Below, piece by piece: positions 7,216 through 27,467 of a stretch of DNA of 64,000 bases. This DNA comes from a virus. The stretch lies in the IMG/VR virus record IMGVR_UViG_3300031673_008942, positions 1 to 64,000 of that record. One strand, given 5' to 3'. A model generated the notes under the pieces. It worked only from the letters and a program-made list of their open reading frames with translations, had not been told where the DNA came from and made no database searches. Each line of letters starts with the position of its first letter. Position 1 is the stretch's first letter. Both the position numbers and the translations under genes were made by a program.

Positions 7216-7563
7216 ATGTCTAATCAAATATCAGACCCTAATCCTCATAATTTAACTTTCCCCTATCCCTTGAATGGTCCCGGACCTGCAAGGGCTAGAG
7301 GGCAAGGATGTTTGGTGTGTGTGCATCAGACGATTTGCCCCGCAGTATATTGGTTTTATCGGTATACTCAGAATGAGTTGGGTCAGACGCAAGGCACTTT
7401 GTGTGCTTCTTGGTCGGACAATCCAGCGGATTCTCCTACTCCGGTCAATGAACCTGATTTGGAAGAGAATGAATATATTGCTATTCAGGGGATTGGCTCG
7501 GAGGCACGTAGGAATGGTATCACAGAGCCTGTAACTGGCAGTAACCGTCGTGGAGCTTCGTAA
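7216..7563 (+). CDS. Hypothetical protein with CxxC motif
   Basis: CLVCVH...C; TAATG-coupled to the next gene. Confidence 0.55.
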   Translation: MSNQISDPNPHNLTFPYPLNGPGPARARGQGCLVCVHQTICPAVYWFYRYTQNELGQTQGTLCASWSDNPADSPTPVNEPDLEENEYIAIQGIGSEARRNGITEPVTGSNRRGAS

Positions 7564-22977: not shown

Positions 22978-23491
22978 AGCTTATGCAGGAATTGGTAGTA
23001 GAGATGTAACGGTTGATGAGAAAGCCAGAATGAATAAGTTGGCTTCAGAGTTAAGTGACGAGGGCTGGTATCTTTATTCGGGTCATGCCGATGGTTCTGA
23101 TTATGCGTTTGAGTATGGGTCAGATAGGGATAAGGCTGTGATTTGGCTTCCATGGGAGGGCTTTAATGGTCCAACTGAGGCTAAGTATTGGTACGTGGTG
23201 GGTGATAATGTCAAGGCTCAGGAGTCTGTAGATGAATATCATCCTTCTCCCAAGCGACTGGGAAGACCTGGACGAGCTTTGATGGCAAGGAATTATTATC
23301 AGATTATGGGGGATGGTGATAGGTGGCCAGTGGTTTCCTTTGTGGTGTGTTGTTCTGAGCCAGATAGAGGGGGAGGCGTTAAGGGAGGAACTGGTCAGGC
23401 AGTGAGGATGGCTATGGATAAAGGAATCCCGGTATTCAATTTGAGAGTGTTAGGTCTTGATGAAGTGAGAGATAAAATAAATAAAATTTGA
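22970..23491 (+). CDS. SLOG-superfamily (DprA-like) protein
   Basis: YAGIGSR, LYSGHADGSD.AFE, ARN..QI, GGTGQAVRMA..KGIPVFNL. Confidence 0.8.
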   Translation: MIRAYAGIGSRDVTVDEKARMNKLASELSDEGWYLYSGHADGSDYAFEYGSDRDKAVIWLPWEGFNGPTEAKYWYVVGDNVKAQESVDEYHPSPKRLGRPGRALMARNYYQIMGDGDRWPVVSFVVCCSEPDRGGGVKGGTGQAVRMAMDKGIPVFNLRVLGLDEVRDKINKI

Positions 23492-23510
23492 AATATTGAT
23501 ACAAAAGTAT

Positions 23511-23538
23511 CTGATTTTTTCGTACAATAGGTTATAAT
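23511..23538 (+). promoter_or_regulatory. Putative sigma70-type promoter for the RNA operon
   Basis: CTGATT-N16-TATAAT about 30 nt upstream of the first ncRNA. Confidence 0.45.
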
Positions 23539-23552
23539 ACATTTAAGAATGG

Positions 23553-23565
23553 TGTTCTTTGAAAA
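23553..23565 (+). promoter_or_regulatory. rrn-type boxA antitermination element
   Basis: TGTTCTTTGAAAA between the promoter and the first structured RNA. Confidence 0.6.
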
Positions 23566-23568
23566 TTT

Positions 23569-23771
23569 AATAGTACGCTTCGGAAGAGAGTTGCTTCTGA
23601 ATAACGGACCTAAGGTAGCGAATATGCTCACCCTAACAATTCGGTTGAGGGTGGCTAGCGACATCCATGTATAGGGAAACCAAAGTGGAGAGACCGGTGC
23701 CGTAAACCCTTCGGGGCACGGTAAACGTAGACCACACAAGACATAAACTCTTTTTGATTATTGGTACTATT
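23569..23771 (+). ncRNA. Y-RNA-like ncRNA 1 (~200 nt)
   Basis: Terminal stem AAUAGUAC/GUACUAUU, internal loop GCU/UUAUUG, upper stem UCGGAAGAGAGUU/AACUCUUUUUGA; internal hairpins incl. UUCG and GAAA tetraloops; Ro60 gene downstream. Confidence 0.7.
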
Positions 23772-23781
23772 TTTATATTTT

Positions 23782-23977
23782 TTGATACGCTTCAAGAAGG
23801 AGATACTTCTACACTAGGAAACGAGAAGCTCAATAGATACTGAAGTGCTGAAGTGCTTAGGCACGGTATCTTCTCCACATGGAGGAGCAGGTGGCATATA
23901 AGTCATCTTTTAAGGCGTGAGTTAAGAAGATTGCCGACTCACAAGCAAATGAGACTCTTTTTGATTATTGGTATCAA
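23782..23977 (+). ncRNA. Y-RNA-like ncRNA 2 (~196 nt)
   Basis: Terminal stem UUGAUAC/GUAUCAA (covaries with copy 1), same internal loop and identical 20-nt 3' segment; different internal hairpins. Confidence 0.7.
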
Positions 23978-23985
23978 TTTATTTT

Positions 23986-24061
23986 TCAGTTAACTAGGTC
24001 CTCGCATGACCGTCCCGATGATAAGAGCAAAGGTCGTTAATATTGTCGCCTGGTTGGCTGA
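23986..24061 (+). ncRNA. Unassigned 76-nt structured small RNA
   Basis: 13-bp closing stem UCAGUUAACUAGG/CCUGGUUGGCUGA with inner AUGACC/GGUCGU stem; lies between two RNA genes. Confidence 0.5.
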
Positions 24062-24074
24062 TTTCCCCAATTTT

Positions 24075-24428
24075 GGGGGTGACCAGGATTCGACTGTTTG
24101 GTAGGATTCAAAGTTGCATGCCGAGGATGATAGTTGGCCTCGTAAAACATCTGTCAAAAACATAATTGCAAAAAATATTCTTGCATTTCCTGGGCTTGCT
24201 CAGGAAAAATTAGCTGCATAAGCTACGCCTTTTAGCCCTATGAGGTGTCGTCAATGGGTTCGAGATTAGGATAACTCCCATAAATCCTTCCTTGTAAAGA
24301 ATGGGATGGCTCTTTGGAGGGTTTGCCTTTTCCAATAAGAAGAGCGAGATAGGAATAAAGGAGAAGCATGTAGCGAGCTTTGTTGAAAGTCTCTCAGGAC
24401 GGGGGTTCGATTCCCCCCACCTCCACCA
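24075..24428 (+). ncRNA. ssrA: tmRNA; tag ORF 24168-24221 encodes (A)AKNILAFPGLAQEKLAA
   Basis: 5' GGGGGTGA..GGATTCGAC; 3' T-arm GGGGGTTCGATTCCCCC then CACCTCCACCA; G3:U alanine identity pair; tag ends in LAA-stop. Confidence 0.95.
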
Positions 24429-24460
24429 ATTTTTAAGTAAAGAAGAGGAAACTATATTAG

Positions 24461-25192
24461 ATGAAGTTGTTAGATGGGACGGTTTTAGAGAATTCTAAAA
24501 TTCTTAATTCTGATGATATTGAATGTTATGCTGACTCATTTAAAGATGGATTTGTTGTTATTGATAATATCCTTTGTAATGAGGTGGCAGAAGAACTTTA
24601 TCATTTTTTAAATGTTACGATGTCTGAAGTTCAGTGGTGGTATAGGGCTTTTAACTACGTGGGAACAGCAGAATACTATATTGAGAAGGCTTTTAACGAG
24701 GGCTCGATAAAGACAGCCTGTGAAAGATTGGATAAAGTCAGTGGTAAAGAAGGATTTTTCTATACTTTCAGGCGAACCCTTGAGAATCATTATGAGCATT
24801 GTGCTTGCGTCTATTGCGAATTTTTACCATTTTTAAGAAGTCCTGAATTGTTGGGCTTTATCTCCAAGGTGATTGGGGAAGAGGTTACGTCTCCTAAAGA
24901 GGTCTTTGCTAATTACTATGGTAAGGGAGATTTTTTGAATGCTCATCATGATGGAATGAAGGGAAAGATTGGGTTCGTCCTTTATTTGACCAAGAATTGG
25001 AAGCCTCAGTATGGTGGTAACCTTCATTTTCTTACAGAAGACTGGCTCACGATAAAAGAAGTAATGGTGCCTGGATTTAATACATTATTGATGTTTAAAT
25101 TGCCCGATGATGGCAAGGGCATTCCTCACTTTGTACCTCCTGTGCAGACGGAGATAGAGAAGAGATTGGCTGTGTCGGGTTGGTTTAAATAA
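24461..25192 (+). CDS. 2OG-Fe(II) oxygenase (prolyl hydroxylase-like)
   Basis: GDFLNAHHD (HxD), VLYLTKNWKPQYGGNLHF, distal H (PHFV) and RLAVSGWF. Confidence 0.88.
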   Translation: MKLLDGTVLENSKILNSDDIECYADSFKDGFVVIDNILCNEVAEELYHFLNVTMSEVQWWYRAFNYVGTAEYYIEKAFNEGSIKTACERLDKVSGKEGFFYTFRRTLENHYEHCACVYCEFLPFLRSPELLGFISKVIGEEVTSPKEVFANYYGKGDFLNAHHDGMKGKIGFVLYLTKNWKPQYGGNLHFLTEDWLTIKEVMVPGFNTLLMFKLPDDGKGIPHFVPPVQTEIEKRLAVSGWFK

Positions 25193-25209
25193 TAATTTTG
25201 AGGAAAAGC

Positions 25210-25237
25210 TTGATATTCTCTCACAATTTTGTAAAAT
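25210..25237 (+). promoter_or_regulatory. Putative sigma70-type promoter for csp-tRNA-Ro60
   Basis: TTGATA-N16-TAAAAT. Confidence 0.4.
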
Positions 25238-25302
25238 AAACTCTCAAACATATATAATAAGCATGAAAGTTATTTATTAATTACACGTAAGGAATAAGAA
25301 AG

Positions 25303-25494
25303 ATGGAAGAAGGAACAGTAAAGTGGTTTAACTCTGAAAAGGGTTTCGGATTCATTGGAAGAGATGGAGAGGATGATGTATTCGTTCATCATTCAGAGGT
25401 AGACGGCCCTGATTTACAGGAAGATGAGAAGGTCGAATTTGAGATTGGGCAGGGACCTAAGGGTGCTTGTGCGAAGAACGTCAGGAAAATTTAA
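25303..25494 (+). CDS. csp: Cold-shock domain RNA chaperone
   Basis: [22 protein letters not shown] (RNP1/RNP2). Confidence 0.95.
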
Positions 25495-25498
25495 AGTT

Positions 25499-25576
25499 TG
25501 CGGAGTAGAGCAGTCCGGTCAGCTCGCTAGGCTCATAACCTGGAGGCCGAAGGTTCGAATCCTTCCTCCGCCACCA
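25499..25576 (+). tRNA. tRNA-Met(CAT), initiator-like (fMet)
   Basis: Cloverleaf, CAT anticodon, encoded CCA, U1xC72 mismatch, A11:U24. Confidence 0.92.
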
Positions 25577-25670
25577 ATTTAAGTAATATGTATTGATATA
25601 GCTCGCATGTTGTGAGTTAATTGTTATCGGTGGCAATTAAGCCACGCTTCAAATGAAAAAGGAGAGTATT

Positions 25671-27467
25671 ATGGGTACTATGGACTCTATTGCTCGTAAG
25701 AAAAGAGAGGCTAAGAGCAAGCCTTCAAATGCTGAAAATGCAACTACTAACCGTGCTGGTGGAGTATCTTTTGATATTGACGACCCTGCGTTGAAGTTGG
25801 TTGCTATGACCGGTGGTTCGTTTTTCGCAGAACCTCGATACTACAGTGGTGATGCCATTGTCGCTGCTCGTACTACCTCGGCAAGAGGTGCATCTATGAA
25901 GGACAAATTCGGAAAGCTTGAACAGCGTCTGAAGATTGTGGATGGAAAATTAAACGGTTTTGCCTCATGTGAGGAGCTTGATGATGTGGCTCGTGAAATC
26001 GTTGCGACTGCTATGAGTATTGCCGAAACTGATAATCCTGCTGACTTGTTGGCTATTGCCAACTGGCTTCGTAATGAGGCAAATATCCGATTGACCCCAC
26101 AGGTTCTTTTGGTTATTGCATCTCGTTGTGACTCTACCAAGTCTCTTGTAAGGCGTTATGCTCCAAGCATTGTTGTGCGTCCAGATGAAGTTAAGACTTG
26201 TCTGATGATGCATCGTTTTTTCTTCGGCTATAAGTCGTTGGCGAATGGTTTGGCTTGGGGGCTTTGCGATGCCTTGTCGGGGTTTGGTGAAAGAGGTTTG
26301 TTGAAGTATGACAGTTCTTCTTTCCCAACTTGGAAGGATGTTTTGGAATGGTTGCCACGTAAGAACGGTAAGCCATTGAGTTCTGCTGTTGCCAAGTACT
26401 TCATCACTGGTGAAGTGGTTGATGCGAAGGCAACTCCTATCATTGCGGCTCGTAAGGAACTTGCAAAGTGTGAGAAGTTCGAAGGAAAAGCATTTGATTT
26501 GGCTAAGGCTTCCTTGGTTAACTGGGAAGTTCTGTTGACTCAATTCGGACATACTAAATCTGGCAAGAAGGCTGTTTGGGAATATCTGTTGGATAATGAC
26601 CAAGTTGGCTACATGGCATTGTTAAGGAACCTGCGTAACTTCCATGAAGCAGAAATCAGCGCTGAGCATGTTGATAAGGTTTGTGCAAAGATTTCTGATT
26701 TGGAAGAAGTTCGTAAGAGCAGGCAGTTGCCATTTCGTTTTTTGATGGCTCATCAGATTATTGAAGACCTTGGTGGCGATTCCCGTCGTCTTGGTAAGCT
26801 TACTGATGCAATTGCTCAGGCGTCCAACCATGCTTGTGAAAATGTATTCTTGCCAGGTTTGACGGTTGTAATGGCTGACAATTCTGGTTCAATGAGTTCT
26901 CAGATTTCGGCTAAAAGTCAGATGACTTGTGCCGGTGCTGCAAACTCTCTTTGTGGTATTGTTGCTAAGGCTTCTGATGATGCTTATGTGATTTCTTTTG
27001 GGCAGACTATGAAAGAGGTCCGTTTTTCTAAGAATACGGATACTGTTGTTGGTATCGCTCGTGCTGTTGCTGGCGCAAATGTTGGACATTCGACCAATGC
27101 TCATTTGGGTATTGCGTGGATGATTAAGAATAACATTGTTCCTGACCGTGTTATTCTGTTGTCTGACATGCAGTGTTGGGACAGCGATGGCGGATGGTAT
27201 TCCGATGGCTCAGTATGTGACGCTTGGGCTAAGTACAAGAAGGTTTCCAAAGGGGCTTCAAAGACTTGGTTCCATTCGGTTCATATTAATGGTTATGGCG
27301 ACAATCCAATTGATGCCAAGAGTGACAAGGTTAACCTTGTTTCTGGGTTCTCTGAAAAGATTATCCCAATGCTTTTGGAATCAGAAGGAACCGTAGCAGG
27401 GGCTTCAGAAGAAGCTCAGGCATTGCCAACCGTTGAGCAGATTCGCCAAAAGTGGTCTGTAAGCTAA
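25671..27467 (+). CDS. rsr: Ro60/Rsr RNA-binding protein (TROVE + vWA)
   Basis: NRAGG, MALLRNLRN, SRQLPFRF, MIDAS DNSGSM..T..SD; AAGGAG RBS before ATG 25671. Confidence 0.92.
   Translation: MGTMDSIARKKREAKSKPSNAENATTNRAGGVSFDIDDPALKLVAMTGGSFFAEPRYYSGDAIVAARTTSARGASMKDKFGKLEQRLKIVDGKLNGFASCEELDDVAREIVATAMSIAETDNPADLLAIANWLRNEANIRLTPQVLLVIASRCDSTKSLVRRYAPSIVVRPDEVKTCLMMHRFFFGYKSLANGLAWGLCDALSGFGERGLLKYDSSSFPTWKDVLEWLPRKNGKPLSSAVAKYFITGEVVDAKATPIIAARKELAKCEKFEGKAFDLAKASLVNWEVLLTQFGHTKSGKKAVWEYLLDNDQVGYMALLRNLRNFHEAEISAEHVDKVCAKISDLEEVRKSRQLPFRFLMAHQIIEDLGGDSRRLGKLTDAIAQASNHACENVFLPGLTVVMADNSGSMSSQISAKSQMTCAGAANSLCGIVAKASDDAYVISFGQTMKEVRFSKNTDTVVGIARAVAGANVGHSTNAHLGIAWMIKNNIVPDRVILLSDMQCWDSDGGWYSDGSVCDAWAKYKKVSKGASKTWFHSVHINGYGDNPIDAKSDKVNLVSGFSEKIIPMLLESEGTVAGASEEAQALPTVEQIRQKWSVS

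What the first reader, a model, noticed from the sequence alone, without database searches (positions are those of the whole stretch)
23569..23977. Two tandem Y-RNA-like ncRNAs with a constant covarying handle and different internal payload domains
Seen: both ~200-nt units begin ..TACGCTTC(G/A)..GAG(T/A)T(G/A)CTTCT and end CACAAG-N6-8-ACTCTTTTTGATTATTGGTA (identical 20-mer at 23747 and 23954). Their ends pair, with compensatory changes (UAGUAC/GUACUA vs UGAUAC/GUAUCA) around an identical GCU/UUAUUG internal loop. The ~145-nt interiors are unrelated to each other, each has 3-4 hairpins (e.g. CACCCU../..AGGGUG and CCC-UUCG-GGG; AGAUACUG../..GGUAUCU and GUGAGUU../..GACUCAC), and neither shows a GGUUCGA T-arm. 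Established: Y RNAs are a Ro60-binding terminal stem plus an effector module, which is tRNA-like in the YrlA class. Inference: a new long, non-tRNA-like class of modular Y RNAs that let one phage Ro60 recruit different partners or targets.
Basis: partly seen in the sequence, partly recalled or inferred. Interest (0 to 1): 0.92.

Follow-up and report, generated by a model that had tools for sequence, protein, structure and literature searches.

The report
Two long phage Y RNAs beside Ro60
Two neighbouring ~200-base RNA genes in an uncultured large phage belong to a widespread, uncatalogued branch of the Y RNA family (partner RNAs of the Ro60 ring protein); they share a conserved "handle" but carry large, unrelated inner domains, and a copy of the handle sits in front of the phage's own Ro60 gene.

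Summary
Window 23568-23772 and 23780-23979 (+) are two tandem RNAs. Each has a terminal stem, an asymmetric internal loop (5' GCUUC(G/A), 3' GAUUAUUG), a second helix, a (U/A)U(G/A)CUUC element and a ~130-nt unrelated interior.

A covariance model built only from relatives matches both full length (48.7 and 38.0 bits; next best 13). The family has 116 units in 61 Ro60-anchored loci, all on the Ro60 strand, and both helices covary strongly.

Its members come as short hairpins, tRNA-like forms that Rfam's YrlA model detects below its cut-off, and long non-tRNA forms of 160-320 nt. It is therefore a divergent, modular branch of the Y RNA superfamily that no Rfam family, YrlA included, detects at its gathering score.

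The 5' loop tracks the Ro60 clade: NCUUC in 54/54 units beside close Ro60s, 0/58 beside distant ones. A circularly permuted handle lies just before the Ro60 ribosome-binding site (24/42 leaders against 0.3% of controls), which suggests autoregulation.

Ro60 binding and partner recruitment are untested, and the window's two interiors have no homologues. The scan has noted other handle-RNA families beside phage Ro60-like genes on other DNA. Verdict: new variant of a known kind.

The parts
23568..23772 (+). Y-like RNA unit 1 (205 nt). Stem 1 is 23569-23576 with 23764-23771. The 5' loop GCUUCG is 23577-23582. Helix 2 is 23583-23591 with 23747-23755. UGCUUC is 23592-23597. The interior is about 23598-23746. 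The 3' loop GAUUAUUG is 23756-23763.
   Evidence: Model R2, built without window sequences, matches all 73 model positions at 38.0 bits, E 2.5e-9. Pairings verified.
23780..23979 (+). Y-like RNA unit 2 (200 nt). Stem 1 is 23782-23788 with 23971-23977. The 5' loop GCUUCA is 23789-23794. Helix 2 is 23795-23802 with 23955-23962. The invariant UACUUC is 23804-23809. The interior runs to about 23954. The 3' loop is 23963-23970.
   Evidence: R2 matches all 73 model positions at 48.7 bits, E 8e-13. Pairings verified.
23553..23565 (+). boxA-like 13-mer just upstream of unit 1, preceded by a TATAAT at 23533-23538. Probably the head of the RNA operon.
   Evidence: Sequence. The same 13-mer directly precedes a family unit in the unrelated locus L172. 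Its function is inferred.
25623..25654 (+). Circularly permuted handle in the Ro60 mRNA leader: UUAUCG, a 5-bp hairpin, then GCUUCAA. It ends 6 nt before the AAGGAG ribosome-binding site at 25659-25664.
   Evidence: Model R3, built from 23 relatives' leaders, has its top hit in the 64-kb window here (23.7 bits, E 6e-4). Its second hit is the unit 1/unit 2 junction. The element is in 24/42 leaders against 0.31% of control windows. The hairpin covaries.
25671..27467 (+). Phage Ro60 (TROVE + Ro60 vWA), the presumed protein partner. The true start is the ATG at 25671, not 25653.
   Evidence: Pfam TROVE 7.5e-23 and vWA_Ro60 1.9e-8. PDB 1yvp E 1.6e-7. N-termini of relatives.
24075..24428 (+). tmRNA, co-oriented, in the same RNA cluster (context).
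   Evidence: Rfam 156 bits and ARAGORN.
25499..25576 (+). tRNA-Met(CAU) immediately upstream of the Ro60 leader (a conserved neighbour in relatives).

Best explanation
The two units are phage-encoded Y RNAs, non-coding partner RNAs of the phage's own Ro60 (25671-27467). They belong to a divergent, modular branch of the YrlA/YrlB superfamily.

Shown:
- In each RNA the 5' and 3' ends pair (stem 1).
- This closes a conserved asymmetric internal loop: NCUUCA on the 5' strand, GAUUAUUG on the 3' strand.
- A second helix follows, then the near-invariant UACUUC.
- The variable interior is inserted after that element.

Inferred:
- Ro60 binds the handle (stem 1 plus the internal loop), as vertebrate Ro60 binds the bulged terminal stem of Y RNAs.
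- The ~130-nt interiors are effector or gating modules, different in the two RNAs.
- The RNAs are cut out of a polycistronic RNA operon that also holds a third small RNA and tmRNA.
- Free Ro60 binds a permuted copy of the handle next to its own ribosome-binding site and so limits its own translation, with the Y RNAs competing for it.
For: 1. Independent family membership. R2 was trained on 44 units from other loci. It hits both units over the full model and nothing else in the window above 13 bits.
2. Real structure. 88% of cells pair, against 55-58% in shuffles and 36-47% in slid controls. All 17 pairs show double changes.
3. Linkage. All 116 units at E<=1e-4 in 61 loci are on the Ro60 strand, mostly within 1.5 kb of the gene, with 1-5 units per locus. 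An RNA-anchored scan of viral contigs gave 9 true hits, 7 of them next to Ro60.
4. Bridge to known Y RNAs. Sibling units with the same handle enclose a T arm, closed acceptor stem and D arm. Rfam YrlA matches them over the full model at 40.5 bits, E 2e-7. R2 also hits units beside Ro60 in Arthrobacter phage Atuin and Caulobacter phage CcrPW. In Atuin the canonical CGAAG lies exactly where NCUUCA lies here.
5. The loop tracks the protein clade: 54/54 against 0/58.
6. A handle mimic lies at the Ro60 ribosome-binding site.
Against: - No binding data exist.
- The canonical GNCGAA(N)G motif (PMC4201824) is absent.
- Rfam Y_RNA and YrlA do not match the window units even at E<=10.
- Almost all loci were found through Ro60, so linkage is partly by ascertainment.
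- Two true RNA-anchored hits (L167, L172) lie in 31-tRNA arrays on 24-30 kb fragments with no TROVE gene.
- The clade/loop association is not phylogenetically independent.
- The interiors of the window units have no homologue and only modest fold z-scores.
Confidence: 0.72

Rival explanations
1. The handle does bind Ro60, but the large interiors are not partner-recruiting modules. They would be lineage-specific expansion segments, or simply bulk that gates or sponges Ro60. The two RNAs would then be redundant regulators rather than adaptors for different targets.
For: The window interiors have no homologues and weak fold z-scores. Most family members are short hairpins with no module at all: 31 of 54 in this clade. 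Gating by Y RNAs is an established idea (10.1101/312249).
Against: Other long interiors fall into classes conserved across loci at 60-76% identity, with compensatory changes in their hairpins. Single loci keep several different module types side by side, for example L104 with short, short, tRNA-like and long units. That pattern argues for selection on the modules.
Confidence: 0.25
2. The RNAs are structured elements of phage tRNA/tmRNA operons, bound or processed by some factor other than Ro60 (a host RNase or another phage protein). Their nearness to Ro60 would reflect shared operon placement only.
For: Units sit inside tRNA arrays a few bases from tRNA genes. Two fragments carry units but no TROVE gene. 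The window units lie 1.7-2.1 kb from Ro60, with tmRNA and other genes in between.
Against: In loci with no nearby tRNA or tmRNA, the units still abut Ro60 (L010 and L012). The 5' loop sequence switches with the Ro60 clade. The handle is copied in the Ro60 leader specifically. Sibling units are YrlA-like. The two fragments without Ro60 are only 7-9% complete.
Confidence: 0.08
3. The region is not a pair of RNA genes. It would instead be a cis-acting element (terminator, attenuator or promoter repeats), or the coding sequence of the minus-strand ORF 23395-23739.
For: U-rich tracts follow both units. A 114-aa minus-strand ORF overlaps unit 1.
Against: Helices spanning ~190 nt covary across 116 sequences. 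The G-U pairs fit only the + strand. The ORF has no Pfam match. The terminator scan finds nothing here.
Confidence: 0.02

Closest known systems
Bacterial and phage YrlA/YrlB Y RNAs (Rfam RF02553; Chen et al. 2014, PMC4201824; 10.1101/312249)
   Same: - Encoded near Ro60 on the same strand, often several per locus.
- 5'/3' terminal stem, then an internal loop, a second helix and an effector module.
- Short hairpin forms with a pyrimidine-rich loop resemble YrlB.
- Sibling units of the same handle family carry the T arm / closed acceptor stem / D arm permuted tRNA of YrlA, and RF02553 detects them below its cut-off.
   Different: - The window units lack the tRNA-like domain.
- They lack the GNCGAA(N)G motif, with NCUUCA in its place.
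- They do not match RF02553 at any threshold tried.
- They are ~200 nt long, against 114 positions in the RF02553 model.
- The near-invariant UACUUC is not part of the YrlA consensus printed.
Thermus phage phiLo Ro60 with Yrl1/Yrl2 (PMC12135203)
   Same: A phage Ro60 with two Y-like RNAs encoded upstream of its gene. The architecture is stem, internal bulge, stem. Binding was shown there by gel shift and cryo-EM, and a complex with host PNPase was proposed.
   Different: The phiLo RNAs were picked by their CGAA motif and are small. The motif here differs and each RNA carries a ~130-nt interior. The paper's text, as searched, yielded no passage on a leader mimic.
Metazoan Y RNAs (Rfam RF00019)
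   Same: A Ro60-binding terminal stem plus a variable loop module, several paralogues per genome, and U-rich 3' tails.
   Different: No sequence or model match in the searches. Different binding-site sequence (GGUCCGA there). Transcription is bacterial-type, from an operon.
Autogenous translational control by molecular mimicry (for example the threonyl-tRNA synthetase operator and ribosomal-protein operators; from general knowledge)
   Same: A copy of the protein's RNA ligand sits at the ribosome-binding site of its own mRNA.
   Different: Not reported for Ro60 as far as my searches show. Here the mimic is a circular permutation of the ligand's two strands around a hairpin. It is inferred from sequence only.

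Membership tests
Y RNA (Ro60-associated non-coding RNA, functional definition) | Bound by Ro60 in vivo or in vitro | not testable with these tools
   Only indirect support: linkage, loop/protein-clade association and the leader mimic.
Y RNA (Ro60-associated non-coding RNA, functional definition) | 5' and 3' ends pair into a terminal stem interrupted by a conserved bulge or internal loop, with a variable module beyond | tested here: met
   for the window. Covariation.
Y RNA (Ro60-associated non-coding RNA, functional definition) | Encoded close to the Ro60 gene on the same strand | tested here: met
   1.7-2.1 kb upstream on the same strand. In relatives mostly within 1.5 kb, with all 116 units on the Ro60 strand.
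Y RNA (Ro60-associated non-coding RNA, functional definition) | Canonical Ro-binding motif GNCGAA(N)G (bacteria) or GGUCCGA (metazoa) on the 5' strand | tested here: not met
   The window has GCUUCG and GCUUCA at that position. The canonical CGAAG occupies the same position in the phage Atuin units matched by the same model. Motif definition from PMC4201824.
YrlA (Rfam RF02553) | Match to the curated covariance model at its gathering score (69 bits) | tested here: not met
   No hit in the window units at the gathering score or at E<=10. Sibling units reach 30-43 bits.
YrlA (Rfam RF02553) | tRNA-like domain (T arm, closed acceptor stem, D arm) | tested here: not met
   No ARAGORN or Rfam tRNA hit, and no T-loop motif in either unit.
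Handle family defined here (model R2) | Full-length match to a model built without window sequences; stem 1, NCUUCA loop, helix 2, UACUUC, GAUUAUUG loop | tested here: met
   48.7 and 38.0 bits over model positions 1-73. Unit 2 has UACUUC and unit 1 has UGCUUC, one change.
Metazoan Y_RNA (Rfam RF00019) | Match to the curated model | tested here: not met
   No hit at E<=10 in 23300-26200.

The most novel reading that the evidence does not exclude
This uncultured-phage Ro60 clade uses its own RNA recognition code: an NCUUCA / GAUUAUUG internal loop in place of the CGAA motif.

It would then:
- load Ro60 onto a toolkit of interchangeable RNA modules (none, tRNA mimic, several large folds up to ~250 nt) that aim the ring at different host or phage RNAs or nucleases;
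- set its own level by binding a circularly permuted handle at its ribosome-binding site, with the Y RNAs acting as anti-repressors.
Probability: 0.3. Interest if true: 0.8.

Novelty: new variant of a known kind. Interest (0 to 1): 0.6.

Why it matters
Y RNAs are known as small adaptors for Ro60, and the only defined bacterial module is a tRNA mimic.

This family shows one handle carrying at least six unrelated interiors, several larger than the handle itself. It also supplies more than 100 natural sequence variants, in which the presumed protein-contact loop changes together with the Ro60 clade. That is a ready data set for working out how Ro60 recognises RNA.

The handle copy at the Ro60 ribosome-binding site suggests a feedback loop not described for Ro60, and it is easy to test.

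The work also shows that tRNA finders mislabel tRNA-like Y modules in phage tRNA arrays as tRNA genes.

Tried and rejected
- An exact 19-mer of the 3' handle in viral contigs gave 0 hits.
- The single-protein Ro60 search of viral contigs found no relative. The alignment-based searches worked.
The locus of the closest Ro60 relative (P0001, 80% identity) could therefore not be fetched.
- BLAST of the two interiors against 170 related loci and against the phage's own 113.6-kb record found no homologue, repeat or antisense target above chance.
- Rfam at the gathering score and at E<=10 found nothing in the units.
R2, which learned long insertions, solved this.
- The minus-strand ORF 23395-23739 has no Pfam match.
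- No cultured phage has a Ro60 of this clade; the best is 31% identity.
- Three of the 12 RNA-anchored pattern hits were chance matches in coding sequence.

Full report
**Setting**

The window is the first 64 kb of a 113.6-kb IMG/VR virus record rated 34% complete, so it comes from a large uncultured phage. The finding lies in a co-oriented RNA-rich block, in this order:
- a DprA-like ORF ending at 23491
- unit 1 and unit 2
- a third small RNA-like segment
- tmRNA, 24075-24428
- a 2OG-Fe(II) oxygenase
- a cold-shock-domain protein, 25303-25494
- tRNA-Met, 25499-25576
- a TROVE + vWA Ro60 homologue whose real start is 25671

This rests.

**Observation**

The 20-mer at 23747 and 23954 is unique to these two places in the whole record, even with three mismatches.

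Both units have fully paired terminal stems and second helices. Stem 1 differs between the units by three compensatory double changes. Helix 2 differs by A-U/G-U changes that pair only on the + strand.

The interiors do not align. They carry no tRNA-like signal.

**Relatives**

The Ro60 has more than 1400 homologues, many on contigs of 100-340 kb. An alignment of 30 of them (A2) retrieved 79 viral and 80 metagenomic loci.

In loci whose Ro60 is 47-63% identical to the window's, the space upstream of the gene typically reads tmRNA, a long unit, a short ~70-nt unit, tRNA-Met, then Ro60.

The units share this plan:
- stem 1
- NCUUCA(G)
- helix 2
- (U/A)UACUUC
- a variable part
- the return strand of helix 2
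- (C)GAUUAUUG
- the return strand of stem 1

**Models and statistics**

- R1 was built from 11 short units (A3). It found 106 hits in 160 loci, every one on the Ro60 strand.
- On 44 aligned hits (A4), 88.2% of cells pair, against 57.7% in shuffles and 36-45% when partners are slid. All 17 pairs show double changes.
- R2 was built from A4, which holds no window sequence. Run with filters off, it matches 23780-23979 at 48.7 bits (E 8e-13) and 23568-23772 at 38.0 bits (E 2.5e-9). Both matches cover all 73 model positions, and the next hit in 64 kb scores 13 bits.
- In both window units the interior is an insertion at the same point, after the UACUUC apical element and before the return strand of helix 2.
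- With R2 the census is 116 units at E<=1e-4 in 61 loci, 1-5 per locus. Covariation holds at that scale: 88.3% paired against 54.8% in shuffles.

**Link to known Y RNAs**

Rfam finds no Y RNA in the window units. Other members of the same handle family, however, enclose a T arm, a closed acceptor-like hairpin and a D arm in that order. This is the permuted tRNA described for YrlA (10.1101/312249).

RF02553 matches one such unit over its full model at 40.5 bits, E 2e-7, below its gathering score of 69. That unit is L104:1385-1497, its handle is of the window's type, and the Ro60 in that locus is 51% identical to the window's. ARAGORN and the Rfam tRNA model even call tRNAs inside some units.

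R2 also hits RNAs flanking Ro60 in two cultured phages, Arthrobacter phage Atuin and Caulobacter phage CcrPW, where RF02553 gives sub-threshold hits too. In Atuin the 5' strand at the junction of stem 1 and the loop reads CGAAG. That is the published bacterial Ro-binding motif (PMC4201824), and it sits in the position where this clade has NCUUCA.

The family is therefore a divergent branch of the Y RNA superfamily, and its lower internal loop is the positional equivalent of the Ro-binding site.

**Modularity**

| | Ro60 >=45% identical to the window's | Ro60 <45% identical |
|---|---|---|
| Units / loci | 54 / 30 | 58 / 29 |
| 5' loop with NCUUC | 54/54 | 0/58 (AGUGUA, AGUGCA, GGUGCA and the like) |
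| UACUUC present | 52/54 | 57/58 |
| Under 100 nt | 31 | 25 |
| 100-160 nt | 6 (4 with a T loop) | 31 (22 with a T loop) |
| Over 160 nt | 17 | 2 |

Long interiors fall into at least four classes conserved between loci at 60-76% identity. Two classes, tested with four sequences each, keep their hairpins through compensatory changes. One of them is a row of small hairpins with GGAAGAC-type loops.

The window's two interiors match none of these classes and have no counterpart elsewhere in the phage record. Their folds therefore remain predictions.

**Linkage without the Ro60 anchor**

A pattern for short units, scanned over all viral contigs, gave 12 places. Nine are true by R2. Seven of those lie beside Ro60. 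The other two sit inside 31-tRNA arrays on fragments rated 7-9% complete, with no TROVE gene on the fragment. This is compatible with the Ro60 partnership but does not prove it.

**Handle copy in the Ro60 leader**

Just upstream of the Ro60 ribosome-binding site, most loci of this clade carry (A)AAUUG, a 5-8 bp hairpin, then (N)CUUCA(A/G). These are the two strands of the handle loop joined through stem 1 closed by a loop.
- It is present in 24 of 42 leaders, against 0.31% of 18,810 control windows.
- The hairpin covaries: 95.7% paired against 72.6% in shuffles and 28-54% when slid.
- R3, a model built from 23 relatives, puts its best hit in the whole window at 25623-25654 (23.7 bits, E 6e-4), 6 nt before the AAGGAG site.
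- Its second-best hit is the junction where the 3' handle strand of unit 1 meets the 5' handle strand of unit 2. This shows that the leader and the handle carry the same motif.

The simplest reading is that the protein that binds the handle also binds the Ro60 mRNA and controls its translation, and that this protein is Ro60. This step is inference.

**Mechanism proposed, and what is not shown**

Shown:
- family membership
- structure
- linkage to Ro60
- the association between loop sequence and Ro60 clade
- the leader mimic

Inferred:
- Ro60 binds stem 1 plus the internal loop.
- The interiors act as effector or gating modules.
- The units are processed from an operon transcript that starts near the TATAAT at 23533 and the boxA-like 13-mer at 23553.
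- Ro60 represses its own translation.

The strongest rival keeps Ro60 binding but denies specific roles for the interiors. The rival that another factor binds the handle is weakened by the clade-specific loop and by the leader copy lying at the Ro60 gene itself.

**Literature and earlier notes**

Searches found YrlA-type RNAs reported in 22 phages (PMC4201824), two small Yrl RNAs of Thermus phage phiLo (PMC12135203) and a passing mention of TROVE proteins in jumbo phages (PMC7824862). They found no description of this handle variant, of 200-300-nt non-tRNA Y RNAs, or of a Ro60 leader mimic. The Annual Review on bacterial Ro60 was not held in the library.

Earlier notes of this scan describe other handle-RNA families beside phage Ro60-like genes on other DNA, with a different handle motif. 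One first-reader note describes a ~275-nt stem-closed RNA upstream of tRNA-fMet and a TROVE gene in another genome. These are leads, not evidence.

**Verdict**

The two RNAs are a new variant of a known kind: a divergent, modular Y RNA branch with long non-tRNA interiors. The functional claims await binding experiments.

Noticed in passing
window 25623-25654, and leaders of L003, L005-L009, L013, L014, L083-L132: A circularly permuted copy of the Y-handle (AAUUG, covarying hairpin, NCUUCA) lies directly before the Ro60 ribosome-binding site. This suggests Ro60 autoregulation by mimicry.
   Followed up: yes
window 23986-24061: A third stem-closed small RNA-like segment sits between unit 2 and tmRNA. 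Bases 24001-24050 are 92% identical to an unannotated spot between two tRNA-Lys genes in the tRNA array of Rhodococcus phages Francesca and Dorin. It lacks the handle and matches no Rfam family above threshold.
   Followed up: partly
window 23553-23565; L172 around 7302-7320 (minus strand): The same boxA-like 13-mer directly precedes the first Y unit both in the window and in an unrelated huge-phage tRNA array.
   Followed up: partly
L167:972-10534 and L172:21-8931: Fragments of huge phages hold 31-tRNA arrays in which Y-handle units (one short and one ~138-nt tRNA-like unit each) are interleaved a few bases from tRNA genes. No TROVE gene is on the fragment.
   Followed up: partly
L041:744-816 and 883-958; L062:5620-5684; L054:5599-5666: ARAGORN and the Rfam tRNA model call tRNA genes, including a 'tRNA-Pyl(cta)', that lie inside Y-handle units. 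They are probably the tRNA-like modules of YrlA-type RNAs, so such phage tRNA annotations may be wrong.
   Followed up: partly
L003:4931-5127, L006:5510-5724, L007:5475-5666, L093:812-1022; also L008:5340-5420: One class of long Y interiors is a row of 4-5 small hairpins with conserved GGAAGAC or GGAAAGAC loops. Similar hairpins occur inside the neighbouring tmRNA of L008.
   Followed up: partly
L008:2182-2270: A type-P5 twister ribozyme match above the gathering score (48.6 bits) lies a few kb upstream of the Ro60 locus.
   Followed up: no
L054:1405-1549: A partial match to OLE RNA (45.9 bits, just under the gathering score of 50; model positions 282-595) lies in a phage tRNA/tmRNA/Ro60 locus.
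   Followed up: no
protein P0120: An 871-aa Ro60 homologue carries intein and LAGLIDADG Pfam domains, so it is a Ro60 gene interrupted by an intein.
   Followed up: no
window 25303-25494 and 25653-25671: A cold-shock-domain protein gene lies between the oxygenase and tRNA-Met. The Ro60 start is the ATG at 25671 (AAGGAG 6 nt upstream, N-terminus MGT as in relatives), not the upstream ATG at 25653 listed by the ORF finder.
   Followed up: partly
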